Shown here: in pieces, positions 15,417 to 28,131 of the stretch | Layout: the number at the start of each line of letters is the position of its first letter | Position numbering within the stretch: the stretch's first letter is position 1 | Origin: a phage | NCBI GenBank assembly: GCA_024449565.1 | Contig: GCA_024449565.1_4810.1 | Direction: 5' to 3' (one strand) | DNA length: 64,000 bases | Position numbers and translations under genes: made by a program | Notes under the pieces: generated by a model | The model's database searches: none | Told to the model about the DNA's origin: nothing | What the model saw: only the letters and a program-made list of their open reading frames with translations

Positions 15417-15869
15417 TTAAAATATAAAATTCTTCACTCCAAGCCTTTTAAATTCTTTCCTTAACATCATATTAAACTTCTTCAATTTAGTTTTATTCAT
15501 CCTTAGCGGATTGTAGGTGAACACCTTTTCTATTACTTCCTCACTCATTTTTGAGCGCATATTAGTTGCGTAATAGTTCTTGAACGTATAAATAAGGTAA
15601 TTTGCTTCAAGCTTAAGTTCAATTACTTCCTCCGATTCATCAAGCTCAAGCAATCCTCTTTGCGTAAGAATATCTCTTAATATATCCTGACATTTCTTGC
15701 AATCACCTTTGCCTAAAAGCGAGTCGATGTAATCGCCGCTGACGCGCTCATCACCGAAGTATGTTGCGCGACCACAAAGGCTTTGCACTTCTCCTTCGTC
15801 AAAGTAGTGCGCGCGATGAGCCCACTTCGGTATGGCCCAACCAGCGGCGATAAGCTTATTACCCATCAC
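15417..15869 (-). CDS. hypothetical early protein
   Basis: Last gene of a tightly tiled minus-strand array; followed by terminator. Confidence 0.45.
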   Translation of the reverse strand: MMGNKLIAAGWAIPKWAHRAHYFDEGEVQSLCGRATYFGDERVSGDYIDSLLGKGDCKKCQDILRDILTQRGLLELDESEEVIELKLEANYLIYTFKNYYATNMRSKMSEEVIEKVFTYNPLRMNKTKLKKFNMMLRKEFKRLGVKNFIF

Positions 15870-16465
15870 CCCTCCTTAACGACCCGATAAGCGATGATGT
15901 CTGAACCATAGCCAAGCAACGTTCTGTTCCAACCGATGCAGTCAGAAAAGACATCGTTAGCGACAATGCCGTCTCTGTATTTGACGTCTACCCGTTTCCC
16001 AGGCACCGGATTCTCACCGCCATGCCACGCTGTCCAAGCATCACCATCATTGCTCTTGACAACACGATAAGCAGCAATGTCGCTGCCATTTAACGCTCCT
16101 ATATGGCCCCAGTGAAGATGGTCAGAAAGTCTTGATAAAACTTTATCAGCCCCATCACGCAGCTTGTATTCAACAATCTCGCCAGGCACCGGATTCAAGC
16201 CACCAAACCACACATTCCACGCTTCTTCCTTCGGCGCATCCTCATCCACGCCTATAGTAGCAACGACGTCGTGCAACTGCTTAACAAGCGCCGACGCATC
16301 ACGGACCTGTGAGCGTAATGCAACCAACTCGCGTTGCGCTTCACTGTATTTCGCTTCCAGCGCGGCATAGTCCTCATATTCAACATAGCCGCCTTCATCA
16401 TCCTTTACAACTTCGCAGGTGCAAGCGTGCTGCGTGCAATAATCAACATCGTAACGTTGTATCAT
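15866..16465 (-). CDS. hypothetical protein with two copies of a W-GG-NPVPG ... DIIAYRVV repeat
   Basis: Internal duplication of a roughly 50-aa module; a third copy is in the 17943 gene. Confidence 0.5.
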   Translation of the reverse strand: MIQRYDVDYCTQHACTCEVVKDDEGGYVEYEDYAALEAKYSEAQRELVALRSQVRDASALVKQLHDVVATIGVDEDAPKEEAWNVWFGGLNPVPGEIVEYKLRDGADKVLSRLSDHLHWGHIGALNGSDIAAYRVVKSNDGDAWTAWHGGENPVPGKRVDVKYRDGIVANDVFSDCIGWNRTLLGYGSDIIAYRVVKEG

Positions 16466-16956
16466 TTTAACTTCTCCAAAATTCCAATAGCGATTTGCGT
16501 CTGTTTCTCAAGCGCAAGACGCAGTATGTCAATTTGCAAGTCACGATGGGCCAGTTCAGCGGCGATGTCAGACTTGCTGTAAAGTCCTTCATGAGTCATG
16601 GCATAGATGTGGCGTGTATAATAGCCGCCCTCGTCGAGTTGCTCGATGTCACGTTGCCCGACTGCGTATTGGTCATCGGTCGATGGCGCTTGGTCCTGAA
16701 TTTTAATTGCCGTCACTTCCTTTAATGAATCGCGTGATGCTGGCCTGTTCTCTTCGAACATCTTTCCATCACCAATTTGCTTGCACCAAAGCGAATCGCC
16801 GATTGCGTATCCCCACTGGCCGCAACAATCGTTCCATGCAGGCTTCCCCTCATACGCCCAGATGGTTCCGTTAGAGTCACGTGCAACGAATTTTGCACGA
16901 GCGTCTATTTCGTATTCTTTGCCTTCAAAATTGATGCGTTGCGTTTTGTTAGTCAT
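16462..16956 (-). CDS. hypothetical early protein
   Basis: Tiled minus-strand ORF, ATGA overlap with neighbour. Confidence 0.45.
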   Translation of the reverse strand: MTNKTQRINFEGKEYEIDARAKFVARDSNGTIWAYEGKPAWNDCCGQWGYAIGDSLWCKQIGDGKMFEENRPASRDSLKEVTAIKIQDQAPSTDDQYAVGQRDIEQLDEGGYYTRHIYAMTHEGLYSKSDIAAELAHRDLQIDILRLALEKQTQIAIGILEKLK

Positions 16957-17285
16957 GATGCATCCTTAGTTGGATAGAATTTAGGGTTTTTCTTATAGAA
17001 CGCCTTGAGCCATGCCTTTGCTTCGGCAATGCTGCTGAACTCTTCCTTGGAGAGTCCGGTGCGGTCCTCGCCTGCGACCTTGAAATGGATGCGCACCTTG
17101 AGCCGAAGGTTGGTTGCTCTCGCGTAGTGGCCTTCATAGCCGTCATGATTAAGACTTACTATCGCGGCGAGCATCTCGCAGTCTTCTTTATCGGGATTGC
17201 CGCTGTAACAAATCGGCCAGCCGCGACGTTGGAATGACCTGTATTGGCCTGTCGGCTCAGGGTCCACGTACCATTTCAATTTCAT
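16953..17285 (-). CDS. hypothetical early protein
   Basis: Tiled minus-strand ORF with 4-nt overlap. Confidence 0.45.
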   Translation of the reverse strand: MKLKWYVDPEPTGQYRSFQRRGWPICYSGNPDKEDCEMLAAIVSLNHDGYEGHYARATNLRLKVRIHFKVAGEDRTGLSKEEFSSIAEAKAWLKAFYKKNPKFYPTKDAS

Positions 17286-17605
17286 TCAAATTTCTCCGTC
17301 TCTTTAATGCACTGTAATACCTCTTCGATGCCCACTTCAACTTGCACATCGCTTTGACGCATCTCATCGATGAATTCATCTTCACAGCGTATCGGGTTAT
17401 GCATCGTTGATATTTCAAACACCTCAACGTGACTGACCAGCGGCAAAAGGTGCTTCCTTACTAATTTGATTAAAACGTCGTGCGAGTCCTTGTCTTTTAT
17501 TTCTGATTCAATATTATTTTCTTCACAGAAAAGTGACACTGTGTCACCATCCATGAATCCGAACTTAGATGCAAGCGATTGCGCGCGCAAGTTAAGAGTT
17601 TTCAT
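17282..17605 (-). CDS. hypothetical early protein
   Basis: Tiled minus-strand ORF with 4-nt overlap. Confidence 0.45.
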   Translation of the reverse strand: MKTLNLRAQSLASKFGFMDGDTVSLFCEENNIESEIKDKDSHDVLIKLVRKHLLPLVSHVEVFEISTMHNPIRCEDEFIDEMRQSDVQVEVGIEEVLQCIKETEKFE

Positions 17606-17943
17606 TTGACCTTCTCCAATTGGAATCTTGTTTCTGGAAAGCCTGCGACAAACATGTCACGGCCCTCGACATCACGCTTCACGAACCAACGCATTCCGCT
17701 TACTACCGTGAAGACAATTTGCCTTCCATCAATAATAAGTCCTTTTGCTTCATAAAGCAAATAGGTCTGACCGACTTTGAAGCTGGACAGCTCTTTGCTT
17801 GCGCTGGTGCACTTGAGCCGCCACTGGGTGAGATTGGATTCGCTCGCCTCGATGTCAACAACCTTACCGCGCAGCGGCGATGTGCGCTGAAGTTCGGCCA
17901 TTTGTTCATCAAATGTCAGCTCACGGCCTTCTTGCTCTTCCAT
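17602..17943 (-). CDS. hypothetical early protein
   Basis: Tiled minus-strand ORF; FKVGQTY motif shared with the 19138 gene. Confidence 0.45.
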   Translation of the reverse strand: MEEQEGRELTFDEQMAELQRTSPLRGKVVDIEASESNLTQWRLKCTSASKELSSFKVGQTYLLYEAKGLIIDGRQIVFTVVSGMRWFVKRDVEGRDMFVAGFPETRFQLEKVK

Positions 17944-18443
17944 TATTCCTCCACGACGCGATAAGCAATGATGTCATACCCCGATTCTTTATGACTCCAA
18001 CGGCATTTTTCGGATTCTGAAGGAAAAATCGTCTTTGTGCCTTGCCTTATTGCCACGCGGACTAATTTACCAGGCACAGGATTGCAGCCGCCAGCCCATT
18101 CAATCCAGCCGTCACTCGCCATCGGTTTATCCTTCAAGCACTCATGCTTCTCACCGATGTGGGCGACAGGTTGACGGCTTCCGTGATAGAATGCAAGCGC
18201 AACATCATGGCTTGGGTGAGTATTAGAAAGGCAAATGTCATCACACCAAAGCTCCATGGTGCGCGACTTAAGGGTCATGATATTGATATACCACTCGATG
18301 GTGTAGTGGTCATTAAGGTTGCCAACGATATAGAAGTTGCGACAAAACACCTTATCGCTATCTGACTTCTCGCGACGATAGCTTTTGATTGCGCCTGCCT
18401 TTACGGCCATTTCCAGTACTGCTTCGAGTTGTTCGATTTTCAT
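17943..18443 (-). CDS. hypothetical protein with one W-GG-NPVPG ... DIIAYRVV module
   Basis: C-terminal WAGGCNPVPGKLVRV ... YDIIAYRVVEE matches the repeat in the 15866 gene. Confidence 0.5.
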   Translation of the reverse strand: MKIEQLEAVLEMAVKAGAIKSYRREKSDSDKVFCRNFYIVGNLNDHYTIEWYINIMTLKSRTMELWCDDICLSNTHPSHDVALAFYHGSRQPVAHIGEKHECLKDKPMASDGWIEWAGGCNPVPGKLVRVAIRQGTKTIFPSESEKCRWSHKESGYDIIAYRVVEE

Positions 18444-18676
18444 TTCTTTACTCCGAGTTCAATTTGATAGCCGATTAACAATTCATTTTCGCCGATGGTA
18501 AATGCATCGACTGGCTGCGACATCACCGCTTTTAAATATACCTTCTTGCGCCGCTTTGCCTTGTACAAACAACGGTCGCCGCTGCGGTTGTAAATATTAA
18601 GCCAGGTGCGTTTACTAATCTTATGAGGCACATGCGGCTTGATGAATAATAAACGGGCTTTAAGATTTGATGTCAT
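18440..18676 (-). CDS. hypothetical early protein
   Basis: Tiled minus-strand ORF. Confidence 0.4.
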   Translation of the reverse strand: MTSNLKARLLFIKPHVPHKISKRTWLNIYNRSGDRCLYKAKRRKKVYLKAVMSQPVDAFTIGENELLIGYQIELGVKK

Positions 18677-20731: not shown

Positions 20732-20760
20732 GAAAAGGCAAGCATTTAGCTCACCTTTTT
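20732..20760 (-). terminator. terminator-promoter unit (minus strand), copy 2
   Basis: Same hairpin as at 19480; on minus strand TTGCCT then 17 nt then TATACT follows. Confidence 0.5.
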
Positions 20761-23364: not shown

Positions 23365-24012
23365 TTATCCTGTGGCCTGCATATTGCGTACATACTTCTG
23401 CTCTAATGAATAGATGAAGTCGGCGACAGTCAATCCCTTCGTGTGCCATTCATACATGGTGAAGCCTGTATTCAGGAAATAGCCGCGCACTTTATCCATT
23501 GCTTCAGCTTCCTCCATTGAAGCCATCAGCGCGGCGACGTTGTCATAAGAAGGCACAAATCCCTTCTTGCGTAGCGCATTGCGCAAATCTTTAGTTCTGA
23601 ATCCAATCTTGCAAGGGTCATCACGACCAGTAGATGATGCAACCTTTGGTAGCGCAAGGAACTCTTTAAGGAACATTGCAATGTTCAAGTCGCCTGCGTC
23701 ATCAAGCTTCTGGATTCGGTTGCGACCGCGACCCTTGAATTCACTTGCGCGAGGGTGAGTGCCAAAACAGTGCGCACCTTCCAGTTTAGGGTCGATGATC
23801 ATTACATCTTTACCAATGCGCAGCTCTACGTAGTAAAGATAAGACTCATCGACAAGCTTTGTACGCTTGCAAGTGATTGAGTCCTTATCATAACCAAAGC
23901 CACGCAACACGGTTGAAATCATCCGGTTCATTTCTTCGCCGTGAACATCACTTTCTTTGTTCAGTTCACCAAGATGTTGAAAGAATTTAGCGATGTTGAT
24001 TGCTTTATTCAT
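23365..24012 (-). CDS. hypothetical protein
   Basis: 215-aa ORF adjacent to the VirE-like gene. Confidence 0.45.
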   Translation of the reverse strand: MNKAINIAKFFQHLGELNKESDVHGEEMNRMISTVLRGFGYDKDSITCKRTKLVDESYLYYVELRIGKDVMIIDPKLEGAHCFGTHPRASEFKGRGRNRIQKLDDAGDLNIAMFLKEFLALPKVASSTGRDDPCKIGFRTKDLRNALRKKGFVPSYDNVAALMASMEEAEAMDKVRGYFLNTGFTMYEWHTKGLTVADFIYSLEQKYVRNMQATG

Positions 24013-25682
24013 CAGAATTCATCCTTATCTCTTCCCAAAGAACGTTTACGTTCAATAACCTTCTTCAAGAACTCAATATCTTCAGGGTCAGACTCATCGC
24101 GGATAAGATACGCTAAGATGGTCATCAAGTCAGAAATGTATTCCCCTGCTTCATTCTTAATCAGCGGCGTAAAGTAACCGCGCTGGTTGCGATAGGTCGC
24201 AGGTTCAAAGCCAAGCTTTGACATGTGCGGCGCAAGGGTACGAGAGAAAGGCGACTTGCCGCACTTCGCTCTGAATCCCATAGCGATAGCACCACTGGTA
24301 ATGTGCCAGCGTCCGCTGTGATGTCGGTCATAAGGCGCGGTGATGACGACTTCAACAAGGTCGTTGTCAACCATCTCATCACGGATAACGCCTCGCGCAC
24401 GTTCCATTTCATTCTTGCTGAACTCAGTAAGCATGCGAGATGTTTCACCAACAAACGCGTTATAGCCTGCTTCGCCGTGCTTCTCCATCCACGCAGCACA
24501 CTCAGCCATCAACTGCCAAACGTCTTCTTTCAAAGTAGAAAGGTCAGCTTGGAAGTCTTTCGACCAGTTCGGTTGCCCGTCCTTATCAGCGAGTTGGCCA
24601 ACAAAGATAGGATACACACGACGGTTGCCTGTGTCATCACGTTGCATGCCTGCGTATTCGTTGCCGTCCATGATAGCAATCCACTGGCGTGGTTTCACCT
24701 GCGTATCTTCAAATTTGAAGTCCAGGTCGTCTTCCGTCTTAGTCAGGAATGCTTTCATGTTTTCGATGTCGGCCTTTTTAAAGCCTGTCATCTCGCCGAC
24801 GTTCGCGATAATTGAGCGACCCGTAATAGCTCGCAAGAACGGGTTGAAGTTCTGCGCGGCTAAGTTCAACGGAATCGGTGTTGCGTGGCGGTCGTTCATA
24901 ATAGCTTCGCAAAGCAGCTTGCTAAAATAACTCTTGCCTGCGTTCTGGCCGCCGATGAGCGCGATGGAGATTGGCGCTTGACAGCCAGGGTTGGTCAGGC
25001 GGTTGTAGAGCGATAGCCAAAAATACACACCGATTTGTCGGTTTAACTCTGTATCGAACGGTCGGAATAGCTCGATAAGGTATTTCTCGATGCGCGCAGT
25101 ACCGTCCCATTCAGGCAGCTTCTTGTAGAAGAAGTCCATCAGGTCGTCACGCTGATAACGCATGGCCCATTCCTTATAGGATTGAGCGACCTGACGTGAG
25201 TTTGGGTTGGACAGTCCTGCTGCGTCGACAGCGGCAACTATCTCTGTGACTTCTAAGGTACGGTCAGTGAATGTTTCGCCGCGATGGTCGACTAAGCGCC
25301 CACGAAAAGTATCTTTGTGAGGGAATGGAACAACGCCACTTCCCTTATCAAACAACGCGTCGAAAACCGCATAACGGTTCATGTCACTTGTCCGGTCTGC
25401 CTGTAGAACGAAGTCATCTTTGGTCGGCTTGTAGTGAGGGAACTTGATTACCTGAAGTGAGGCGAGCAAGCGTGCTCTTTCAACCAAGTCTTCTTCACCG
25501 TAGCATTCCATGCGCTCTGAATCTTTTTCAACGGCTTTATGTTGAAGGCTGATTTTAGCTCTGGTGCCTTGCTGCTCTGCTGCCTGCATTTCTTCCGAAA
25601 CGCCTGCATCTTGAATTTCGTCAAAGATTGCACCAAATTCATCACCTGTATCCTCTGGAAGATTGTCATTATTAATTGACAT
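24012..25682 (-). CDS. VirE-like / P4-type primase-associated P-loop ATPase (putative replicative helicase)
   Basis: Walker A IGGQNAGKSYFSKLL; 556 aa; adjacent to primase-polymerase-like gene. Confidence 0.55.
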   Translation of the reverse strand: MSINNDNLPEDTGDEFGAIFDEIQDAGVSEEMQAAEQQGTRAKISLQHKAVEKDSERMECYGEEDLVERARLLASLQVIKFPHYKPTKDDFVLQADRTSDMNRYAVFDALFDKGSGVVPFPHKDTFRGRLVDHRGETFTDRTLEVTEIVAAVDAAGLSNPNSRQVAQSYKEWAMRYQRDDLMDFFYKKLPEWDGTARIEKYLIELFRPFDTELNRQIGVYFWLSLYNRLTNPGCQAPISIALIGGQNAGKSYFSKLLCEAIMNDRHATPIPLNLAAQNFNPFLRAITGRSIIANVGEMTGFKKADIENMKAFLTKTEDDLDFKFEDTQVKPRQWIAIMDGNEYAGMQRDDTGNRRVYPIFVGQLADKDGQPNWSKDFQADLSTLKEDVWQLMAECAAWMEKHGEAGYNAFVGETSRMLTEFSKNEMERARGVIRDEMVDNDLVEVVITAPYDRHHSGRWHITSGAIAMGFRAKCGKSPFSRTLAPHMSKLGFEPATYRNQRGYFTPLIKNEAGEYISDLMTILAYLIRDESDPEDIEFLKKVIERKRSLGRDKDEF

Positions 25683-28074: not shown

Positions 28075-28105
28075 CTTTCTTTCCTTCGGTGATCAATACC
28101 TGCAG

Positions 28106-28131
28106 TATAATATTGAGTGATACAAAGTCAA
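28106..28131 (-). promoter_or_regulatory. sigma70-like promoter TTGACT-16-TATACT (minus strand)
   Basis: Read on the minus strand upstream of the 28074 start; divergent from the plus-strand promoter at 28168. Confidence 0.45.

What the first reader, a model, noticed from the sequence alone, without database searches (positions are those of the whole stretch)
15866..18443. Repeated ~50-aa module in two early proteins
The 15866 protein holds two copies and the 17943 protein one copy of a conserved module (W-x-GG-x-NPVPG-x-V-x-V-K-x-R-D/Q-G ... DIIAYRVV). I cannot assign it to a known domain from memory. Duplication and spread within the early region suggest a host-interaction module.
Basis: seen in the sequence. 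Interest (0 to 1): 0.5.

Follow-up and report, generated by a model that had tools for sequence, protein, structure and literature searches.

The report
Swappable small domain in phage proteins
Two neighbouring small proteins of this E. coli Wifcevirus phage carry three copies of a real, unnamed ~58-residue domain that is common in phages, and its middle part is exchanged like a cassette between near-identical phages, which suggests, but does not prove, a partner-recognition role.

Summary
gpA (15866-16465, minus strand) holds two tandem copies and gpB (17943-18443, minus strand) one C-terminal copy of a ~58-aa module. Pairwise BLASTP gives E 1e-13 to 1e-15, and there is no fourth copy in the window.

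Comparison among Wifceviruses adds a new point. The framework (W..W.GG.NPVPGK and DIIAYRVV) is fixed, while the ~30-aa centre is hypervariable (28 distinct centres in 48 gpB homologues). Synonymous sites in the centre are saturated, so old alleles are being swapped by recombination, including between gpA and gpB. The gpA tandem joins two allele classes and is not a recent duplication.

Function is inferred only. The most likely role is an acidic, scaffolded partner-recognition module. Host interaction is plausible but untested.

The parts
15866..16465 (-). gpA CDS (199 aa). It has a short N-terminal motif, a coiled coil and two tandem modules.
   Evidence: ORF. PHROG hits are phrog_11995, 9174, 26870 and 16943 on the modules, and phrog_23083 plus a weak phrog_3592 hit on aa 1-49. 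A DivIC-like coiled-coil hit covers aa 29-66 at E 0.026.
16229..16465 (-). gpA N-terminal part (aa 1-79): the MIQRYD...GGYVEYEDYAALEAKY motif plus a coiled coil.
   Evidence: The first ~30 aa occur as two alleles among Wifceviruses. The same kind of N-terminus precedes the module in P0030 and P0102.
16055..16228 (-). Module copy A1 (gpA aa 80-137).
   Evidence: It is 84-90% identical to the single gpA module of FEC19 and Bas101 and to copy 1 of ECO71P1.
16082..16177 (-). Variable centre of copy A1 (aa 97-128, between NPVPGE and DIAAYR).
   Evidence: Boundaries come from the sequence. The same centre type is found grafted onto a gpB N-domain in P0235.
15869..16054 (-). Module copy A2 (gpA aa 138-199), at the C-terminus.
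   Evidence: It is 82% identical to copy 2 of ECO71P1 and 67% to the single gpA module of RCIP0319. The AF2 model has pLDDT 84.
15902..15994 (-). Variable centre of copy A2 (aa 158-188).
17943..18443 (-). gpB CDS (166 aa): a conserved N-domain, a disordered linker and one C-terminal module.
   Evidence: phrog_21861 covers aa 1-103 at E 6e-53. The AF2 model has pLDDT 83 with residues 103-108 disordered.
18132..18443 (-). gpB N-terminal domain (aa 1-104). It was found almost only on ~68-kb (Wifcevirus-sized) contigs and is highly conserved.
17946..18125 (-). Module copy B (gpB aa 107-166), at the C-terminus.
   Evidence: The profile score is 80 bits.
17973..18062 (-). Hypervariable centre of copy B (aa 128-157).
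   Evidence: Entropy is 1.72 bits against 0.29 for the N-domain, with 28 distinct centres among 48 homologues. For most pairs pN is 0.41-0.64 and pS 0.66-1.0, against pS of about 0.3 in the N-domain. Pairs that share an allele are low (window/RCIP0319 pN 0.07, FEC19/WFH pN 0.01).
15417..18676 (-). Run of eight genes whose starts and stops overlap or abut (ends 15869/15866, 16465/16462, 16956/16953, 17285/17282, 17605/17602, 17943, 18443/18440). The two module genes are embedded in it.
   Evidence: ORF coordinates. The layout is the same in relatives. In WFH a terminator is annotated just downstream of the orthologue of 15417-15869.

Best explanation
The three copies belong to a large, unnamed family of small (~58 aa) beta-rich phage domains.

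Shown here:
- The domain has an invariant framework: W-x-x-W-x-G-G-x-x-P at the start, an R-(D/N)-G turn, one central Trp, and D-I-I-A-Y-R-V-V at the end.
- It usually forms the extreme C-terminus of a protein.
- It occurs alone, in tandem arrays, or attached to unrelated N-terminal parts.
- In Wifceviruses the ~30 residues between the framework ends are exchanged as cassettes by recombination. The exchange occurs between phages and between the gpA and gpB loci. The rest of gpB stays nearly constant.

Inferred:
- The module is a scaffolded recognition domain. The framework folds, and the variable hairpin and loop contact a partner that differs between hosts or competitors, most probably a protein.
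- In gpA a coiled coil would present four or more modules of two specificities.
- In gpB the module would target or regulate the conserved N-domain.
- In other phages it would do the same for MazG-like dNTP pyrophosphohydrolases.
- Allele turnover would then reflect an arms race, for example evasion or inhibition of host defence.

The confidence value below refers to this inferred mechanism. Confidence that the domain family and the cassette exchange are real is about 0.95.
For: Reality of the module and family size:
- The three copies are significantly similar and there are no further copies in the window.
- 9,199 representative proteins match at E<=1e-3 and 2,666 at E<=1e-10. Between 2 and 9 matched stretches per protein is common.

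Position and architecture:
- The median number of residues after the last module is 1, and linkers within arrays have a median of 3 aa.
- Partners are heterogeneous. There are 164 non-module segments, mostly singletons. The recurrent ones are DUF6378, DUF3310 and dGTP_diPhyd_N.

Fixed framework with a variable centre:
- In gpB the entropy is 0.29 bits for the N-domain, 1.72 bits for the centre and 0.19 bits for the 3' frame, with 28 centres in 48 sequences.
- In the centre pN is 0.41-0.64 and pS 0.66-1.0 for most pairs. The N-domain has pN 0.02-0.11 and pS about 0.3, and the 3' frame has pS 0-0.3 in most pairs.

Independent reassortment of alleles:
- The window shares its gpB allele with RCIP0319 and its gpA arrangement with ECO71P1.
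- P0235 carries a gpA-type module, including the VVKEG tail, on a gpB N-domain.

Other observations:
- The module is dispensable. Module-less or frameshifted gpB variants exist.
- Modules are acidic. The median pI is 5.1 overall and 4.8 for stand-alone proteins, 89% of which are below pI 6. This fits protein binding better than backbone binding of nucleic acid.
- Stand-alone relatives lie in blocks of small accessory or early-type phage genes.
- Wifceviruses are strongly restricted by the K-12 cryptic prophages (10.1101/2024.09.12.612763, read), so host-specific pressure on accessory genes is plausible.
Against: - No partner is known and no experiment exists.
- Variation in the centre affects both faces of the hairpin, including core-like positions, and synonymous sites are saturated. 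The data therefore show exchange of old alleles, not site-specific positive selection. Neutral mosaicism in a general accessory-gene hotspot cannot be excluded, because the surrounding 3.3 kb is itself patchy among relatives (46-91% coverage).
- The conserved Trp/Tyr/Arg/Asp/Gly-Gly framework could be a ligand pocket rather than a mere scaffold.
- The recurrent fusion to nucleotide-pool enzymes points as much to a nucleotide-related role.
Confidence: 0.4

Rival explanations
1. Nucleotide or small-ligand binding domain. The invariant aromatic/Arg/Asp/Gly-Gly framework forms a pocket for a nucleotide, such as a dNTP or a signalling nucleotide. Stand-alone copies would act as sensors or sponges, and fused copies would regulate dNTP pyrophosphohydrolases. 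The centre would vary only because it is weakly constrained.
For: - Recurrent fusions to dGTP_diPhyd_N (6), DUF6378 (6), DUF3310 (6), dATP-dGTP_PPHyd (1) and HD (1) occur among 138 multi-copy representatives (confirmed on cluster representatives).
- PF18909 and DUF550 are nucleotide-pool enzyme domains of Z-genome phages (PMC12884076).
- The framework is highly conserved across the whole family.
Against: - No Pfam or PDB sequence similarity to any nucleotide-binding family was found.
- Most family members have no enzyme partner.
- This reading does not explain why so many centre alleles are maintained among near-identical phages.
Confidence: 0.2
2. Self-association or structural module. The small sheet pairs with a second copy, in trans for stand-alone proteins and in cis for tandem arrays. 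It would serve only to oligomerise or stabilise whatever it is attached to, with no specific external partner.
For: - Two-copy proteins are the commonest class among the best-scoring representatives, with very short linkers of median 3 aa.
- The single-domain model has only 3-4 strands, which is small for an autonomous fold.
- gpA combines the module with a coiled coil.
Against: - The monomer is modelled with good confidence (pLDDT 84, pTM 0.69).
- A pure oligomerisation role gives no reason for allele diversity.
- It gives no reason for stand-alone 60-aa genes to be kept in thousands of phages.
- Module-less gpB variants persist.
Confidence: 0.15
3. Chance similarity or low-complexity artefact: there is no real domain.
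For: None found.
Against: Pairwise E values are 1e-13 to 1e-15. There are thousands of profile matches. The AF2 fold is confident and is recovered in other phage proteins by Foldseek.
Confidence: 0.01

Closest known systems
PHROG families phrog_11995, phrog_9174, phrog_26870 and phrog_16943 (all 'unknown function')
   Same: These profiles match the module itself in gpA and gpB, with E 3e-18 to 2e-5. The sequences are therefore already catalogued as phage protein clusters.
   Different: They are whole-protein clusters, not a domain definition. They split one domain family over several clusters according to the N-terminal partner.
DUF551 (PF04448), e.g. E. coli K-12 CPS-53 protein YfdS
   Same: This is a resemblance of style, recalled from memory as a lead. 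DUF551 is a small C-terminal module of prophage accessory proteins that begins with an aromatic/Pro motif and ends with a conserved aromatic strand. It is often preceded by a coiled coil, and its neighbour family DUF550 is a MazG-like dATP/dGTP pyrophosphohydrolase.
   Different: Homology was tested and not found. There is no Pfam hit. hhalign of the module profile gives probability 0.1% against YfdS and 1.3% against a 19-sequence YfdS-type DUF551 profile.
Mosaic accessory proteins of phage early regions and Lar-like proteins (phrog_3592)
   Same: The N-terminus of gpA (aa 3-49) weakly matches the first 50 positions of phrog_3592 at E 2e-3. Like those proteins (established knowledge), gpA is a patchwork of short exchangeable segments: an N-motif, a coiled coil and a C-terminal module.
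   Different: There is no Pfam Lar_restr_allev or Ead_Ea22 hit. The weak PHROG match does not cover the module. No restriction-alleviation function can be inferred.
Cassette exchange of receptor-binding domains in phage tail fibres
   Same: The evolutionary pattern is the same: a conserved N-terminal part, a sharply bounded hypervariable C-terminal part, and alleles scattered across the phylogeny. This is described for Wifcevirus T-shaped fibres in 10.1101/2024.09.12.612763.
   Different: gpA and gpB are small, acidic proteins encoded in a block of small non-structural genes, with no fibre features. The unit exchanged is only about 30 aa inside a 58-aa domain.
Small phage sponge proteins such as Tad2 (DUF2829) and Acb2 (comparison from memory; functional analogy only)
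   Same: They are small proteins encoded among phage accessory genes.
   Different: No sequence or fold similarity was detected. Ligand binding was not tested.

Membership tests
Unnamed W..W.GG..P / DIIAYRVV module family (the family defined here by profile A2) | Significant match to the family profile over the full ~58-63 positions | tested here: met
   All three window copies score 62-80 bits (E 4e-18 to 5e-24) against the 58-sequence profile. The profile recovers 9,199 representatives.
Unnamed W..W.GG..P / DIIAYRVV module family | Invariant framework residues (W, W, GG, P, R, central W, D-I-I-A-Y-R-V) | tested here: met
   All are present in A1, A2 and B, except that A1 has DIAAYR.
Unnamed W..W.GG..P / DIIAYRVV module family | Position at the extreme C-terminus of the protein, or in a tandem array with linkers of a few residues | tested here: met
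   A2 and B end 2-3 residues before the stop codon, and A1 and A2 abut directly. For the family, the median C-terminal remainder is 1 aa and the median linker 3 aa.
DUF551 (PF04448) | Pfam HMM match at or above the gathering score | tested here: not met
   No hit for gpA or gpB at E<=0.1, nor for any of 58 family members at E<=10. The positive control YfdS scores 22.2 bits against a cut-off of 22.
DUF551 (PF04448) | Profile-profile similarity to DUF551 sequences | tested here: not met
   hhalign probability is 0.1% against YfdS alone and 1.3% against a 19-sequence YfdS-type profile. Caveat: only the YfdS branch of DUF551 was sampled.
Tudor / SH3-like barrels (e.g. Tudor_Coilin PF23086) | Pfam match, or fold match to solved Tudor or SH3 barrels | tested here: inconclusive
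ATP-grasp nucleotide-binding subdomain | Significant structural superposition on the ATP-grasp sheet | tested here: inconclusive
Lar-like restriction alleviation / Ead-Ea22-like proteins (for gpA as a whole) | Match to Pfam Lar_restr_allev (PF14354) or Ead_Ea22 (PF13935) | tested here: not met
   No such hit at E<=0.1. There is only a weak PHROG match, phrog_3592 at E 2e-3, restricted to aa 3-49.
MazG-like dNTP pyrophosphohydrolase fusion proteins carrying this module | Presence of a dGTP_diPhyd_N, DUF6378, DUF3310 or DUF550 domain in the same protein | tested here: not met
   gpA and gpB have none. Such fusions exist only in relatives.
Diversity-generating retroelement (DGR) variable region | A near-identical template/variable repeat pair that differs essentially at adenines | tested here: not met
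   The DNA alignment of the module copies has a mean column identity of 69%, with differences spread along its length. Only 15-44-nt imperfect repeats are present. Divergence between alleles is saturated at synonymous sites.
Diversity-generating retroelement (DGR) variable region | A reverse transcriptase gene nearby | not tested
   The window's large ORFs were not scanned against Pfam for RVT domains.
Known anti-phage defence or candidate defence proteins (PADLOC-DB) | Match to a PADLOC model | tested here: not met
   No hit at E<=0.1 for gpA, gpB or five neighbours.

The most novel reading that the evidence does not exclude
The module is a natural, minimal 'binder scaffold' of phages. It would be a 58-aa framework whose ~30-aa insert is swapped between phages and between paralogous loci to retarget attached effectors, or to act alone as an inhibitor or decoy, against variable host immunity proteins. 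This would make it a widespread, previously undescribed class of specificity cassette. A variant of this reading is that the conserved framework binds an immune signalling nucleotide, so that the stand-alone proteins are a new sponge family.
Probability: 0.2. Interest if true: 0.75.

Novelty: new variant of a known kind. Interest (0 to 1): 0.5.

Why it matters
If the inference holds, thousands of tiny 'hypothetical' phage genes and C-terminal extensions could be annotated as one recognition domain. The allele pattern in Wifceviruses would then give a tractable system for mapping phage-host specificity determinants that act after adsorption, because the phages are about 90% identical and differ in 30-aa cassettes. 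Wifceviruses are blocked by the K-12 cryptic prophages (10.1101/2024.09.12.612763), so testable host factors exist. Even without a known function, a domain family with more than 9,000 sequence clusters that is absent from Pfam deserves a definition. Its recurrent fusion to dNTP-pool enzymes may bear on how those enzymes are targeted or regulated.

Tried and rejected
1. Named-domain assignment. Pfam on gpA, gpB and neighbours, on 58 family members at E<=10 and on 158 multi-domain relatives gave no family covering the module. NCBIfam and PADLOC gave nothing.
3. DUF551 homology, a lead from memory, was rejected by hhalign. A viral-contig scan for diverse DUF551 returned only near-identical YfdS copies and was of no use.
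4. Recent tandem duplication was rejected. A1 and A2 are 46-51% identical in protein, diverged at the DNA level, and belong to different allele classes.
5. A DGR-type mutagenesis pattern was rejected.
6. Generic nucleic-acid binding is disfavoured by the acidic pI.
7. Conserved gene neighbours were sought around four stand-alone homologues and a Sphingomonas prophage copy. No recurrent neighbour was found, only generic early or accessory phage contexts.
8. Promoter and terminator scans were not above chance.
9. Literature. The motif strings returned no paper. Searches on DUF3310/SaV and on DUF6378/PF18909 did not turn up a paper describing the module. The Wifcevirus papers do not discuss these genes.
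Full report
**Source of the window.** The 3.3-kb region around the finding is 88-93% identical in DNA to Escherichia/Shigella phages of the genus Wifcevirus (ECO71P1, FEC19, WFH, Bas98-101 and others). These are ~68-kb myoviruses. The two genes lie in a minus-strand block that runs from about 28074 down to about 14100. The block includes the orthologue of the annotated DNA primase (24012-25682) and then some 25 small genes. From 18676 to 15417, eight genes overlap or abut at their stop and start codons. In phage WFH a terminator is annotated just downstream of the orthologue of 15417-15869. Early expression is therefore inferred from position only. The consensus promoter scan is not above chance: 29 sites were found against 24.6 expected.

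**Check of the observation.**
- gpA (15866-16465, minus strand, 199 aa) contains the motif W..W.GG.NPVPG at residues 83 and 144. gpB (17943-18443, minus strand, 166 aa) contains it at residue 113. Each is followed by DI(A/I)AYRVV.
- The three copies are 40-51% identical, with pairwise BLASTP E values of 1e-13 to 2e-15.
- An HMM of the three copies finds no other copy in any of the window's 1,165 six-frame ORFs.
- The module is about 58-60 aa long, not about 50.
- At the DNA level the alignment of the copies has a mean column identity of 69%, with differences spread along it. They are old paralogues, not a recent duplication.

**What the module is.**
- No Pfam, NCBIfam or PADLOC model matches gpA or gpB. 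Even at E<=10, none of 58 family members hits a common Pfam family.
- Four PHROGs of unknown function match the module: 11995, 9174, 26870 and 16943.
- A profile of the three copies retrieved 65 proteins from the 5.8-billion-sequence collection. Almost all are 57-105-aa stand-alone proteins with the consensus WIEWAGGECPV...V.V..RDG...W.H...DIIAYRVV, and none has a Pfam domain.
- An exhaustive HMMER search with the 58-sequence profile against 1.84 billion representatives found 9,199 proteins at E<=1e-3 and 2,666 at E<=1e-10. Two to nine matched stretches per protein were common.
- tblastn against deposited phages finds the module in phages of Escherichia (Wifcevirus and Vequintavirinae), Klebsiella, Sinorhizobium, Caulobacter, Aeromonas, Pantoea, Salmonella and Thiohalocapsa. 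Foldseek against BFVD adds Xanthomonas, Erwinia, Edwardsiella, Rhizobium and Iodobacter phages.
- Among the 214 relatives fetched by then, the module is typically the very end of the protein, with a median of 1 residue after it. Array linkers have a median of 3 aa.

**Predicted structure.**
- AlphaFold2 with the 58-sequence alignment gives a confident small beta-rich model for copy A2: pLDDT 84, pTM 0.69, with strands at residues 21-26, 31-36 and 53-58 and a short one at 8-9.

**Fusion partners.**
- Of 138 high-scoring multi-copy representatives, six carry dGTP_diPhyd_N (PF18909), six DUF3310, six DUF6378, one dATP-dGTP_PPHyd (PF04447) and one HD.
- Clustering of the 164 non-module segments shows that these are the only sizeable partner clusters (7, 6, 5, 4, 4 and 4 members). 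The rest are pairs or singletons. Pfam names three of the clusters, and the module lies on either side of the enzyme domain.
- PF18909 (formerly DUF5664) and DUF550 are nucleotide-pool enzyme domains of Z-genome phages (PMC12884076).
- gpA and gpB themselves have no such domain.

**Comparison among Wifceviruses (the new result).**
- All seven phages compared have the module at the end of both gpA and gpB. Only this window and ECO71P1 have two copies in gpA.
- Copy A1 is 84-90% identical to the single gpA module of FEC19 and Bas101 and to copy 1 of ECO71P1. Copy A2 is nearest to ECO71P1 copy 2 (82%) and to the RCIP0319 gpA module (67%). Other gpA and gpB modules are only 34-67% identical to one another.
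- The tandem therefore joins two allele classes.
- In gpB, residues 1-100 are nearly constant (pN 0.02-0.11, pS about 0.3). The ~30 residues between NPVPGK and DIIAYRVV reach pN 0.41-0.64 and pS 0.66-1.0 in most pairs. The 3' framework has pS 0-0.3 in most pairs.
- Over 53 gpB homologues, almost all on ~68-kb contigs, mean column entropy is 0.29 bits in the N-domain and 1.72 bits in the centre. There are 28 distinct centres among 48 sequences.
- Saturated synonymous divergence means that old alleles are being exchanged by recombination within the conserved framework. It is not in-place hypermutation.
- Alleles reassort independently. The window shares its gpB allele with RCIP0319 and its gpA arrangement with ECO71P1.
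- One gpB (P0235) carries a gpA-type A1 module including the gpA tail VVKEG, so exchange also occurs between the two loci.
- Some gpB variants lack the module (108 aa, e.g. phage AV128) or are frameshifted at the GG motif. The module is therefore dispensable for the N-domain.

**Further properties.**
- Modules are acidic. The median pI is 5.08 over 401 modules. Stand-alone proteins have a median pI of 4.83, and 89% are below pI 6. This argues against generic nucleic-acid binding.
- Stand-alone homologues sit in blocks of small unannotated genes. Nearby genes include integrase and Lar_restr_allev; an S24 repressor, HNH and Rad52; DUF932 and NinX; and a primase-polymerase. One copy lies in a Sphingomonas prophage. 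No neighbour recurs.

**Interpretation.**
- Shown: the domain family is real, large and unnamed; it has a C-terminal, modular architecture; its framework is fixed and its centre is exchanged as a cassette.
- Inferred, at about 0.4: it is a scaffolded recognition module whose variable hairpin and loop bind a variable macromolecular partner. It would be presented multivalently by the gpA coiled coil, and it would target or regulate the N-domain of gpB or the enzymes it is fused to elsewhere.
- The strong restriction of Wifceviruses by the K-12 cryptic prophages (10.1101/2024.09.12.612763) shows that host-specific intracellular barriers exist for these phages.
- Rivals are a nucleotide or small-ligand binding domain (about 0.2; supported by the enzyme fusions and the conserved aromatic/Arg/GG framework) and a self-association module (about 0.15).
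- Neutral mosaicism cannot be excluded, because the surrounding region is itself a patchwork (46-91% coverage; mosaic gpA N-terminus and neighbouring genes).

**Comparison with known families.**
- The best recalled analogue, DUF551, was tested and rejected as a homologue.
- Tudor/SH3-like and ATP-grasp resemblances are inconclusive.
- Lar/Ea22-type assignment of gpA fails at the Pfam level.
- A DGR mechanism does not fit the DNA pattern.
- No paper in the library contains the motif strings.

**Verdict.** Its statement that the domain is unassigned is correct. 'Duplication and spread' should be replaced by cassette exchange of old alleles. 'Host interaction' remains a reasonable but untested inference. 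I rate the finding as moderately interesting (0.5). It is an uncharacterised but very common phage domain with an unusually clean intragenic hypervariable cassette. It is best filed as a new variant of a known kind, namely exchangeable specificity modules of phage accessory proteins.

Noticed in passing
window 16375-16465 (gpA aa 1-30); loci L088, L089, L091 (FEC19, RCIP0319, WFH) and L090 (kaset): The first ~30 residues of gpA occur as two unrelated alleles among Wifceviruses: MIQRYDVDYCTQHACTCEVVKDDEGGYVEY and MIQRYDLTYDVATEDFDITPVPESHEGRFVAY. Phage kaset has an ~80-aa insertion after this segment. Bas101 has a different coiled-coil segment. gpA is thus mosaic in at least three places.
   Followed up: partly
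proteins P0260-P0264 (homologues of window 17943-18443): Some gpB homologues end right after the N-domain (108 aa, e.g. phage AV128). Others are frameshifted inside the GG motif of the module. This matches the single module hit in AV128, ECML-117 and Mansfield.
   Followed up: partly
protein P0235 (170 aa, named as a Salmonella enterica protein, on a 66-kb contig): This is a hybrid. It has the gpB N-domain followed by a gpA-type (A1-class) module with the gpA C-terminal tail VVKEG. It is direct evidence for exchange between the two loci.
   Followed up: yes
window 16462-16956 (-), 164-aa gene between the two module genes: This gene matches different PHROGs in different halves: phrog_1972 and phrog_11307 on aa 4-83, and phrog_34533 on aa 100-151. 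At the corresponding position FEC19, WFH and kaset annotate a 234-bp (77-aa) gene. The whole stretch is an accessory-gene hotspot.
   Followed up: no
window 20733-20759 (-) and 28104-28131 (-): The strongest terminator-like hairpin on the minus strand has 11 pairs and lies at 20759-20733, with promoter-like sites just downstream. The best minus-strand promoter-like site (TTGACT-16-TATACT) lies at 28131-28104, ahead of the first gene of the leftward block. Neither class of site is above chance overall.
   Followed up: no
proteins P0078 (1031 aa) and P0079 (915 aa): These are large proteins with no Pfam match. Each carries three matched module stretches in its C-terminal part after a ~700-aa region. 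That region contains a sequence reminiscent, from memory, of amidoligase-type enzymes (GVELEVY...ERDGSL..GFEVVT).
   Followed up: no
protein P0120 (707 aa): This protein consists almost entirely of degenerate copies of the module, with 9 matched stretches. It shows that the unit can form long arrays.
   Followed up: no
whole window: ARAGORN found no tRNA or tmRNA genes.
   Followed up: yes
L006:9512-9874 (E. coli K-12 yfdS): YfdS of cryptic prophage CPS-53 only just reaches the Pfam DUF551 gathering score (22.2 against 22 bits). In the protein collection most of its close homologues carry no precomputed Pfam domain.
   Followed up: no
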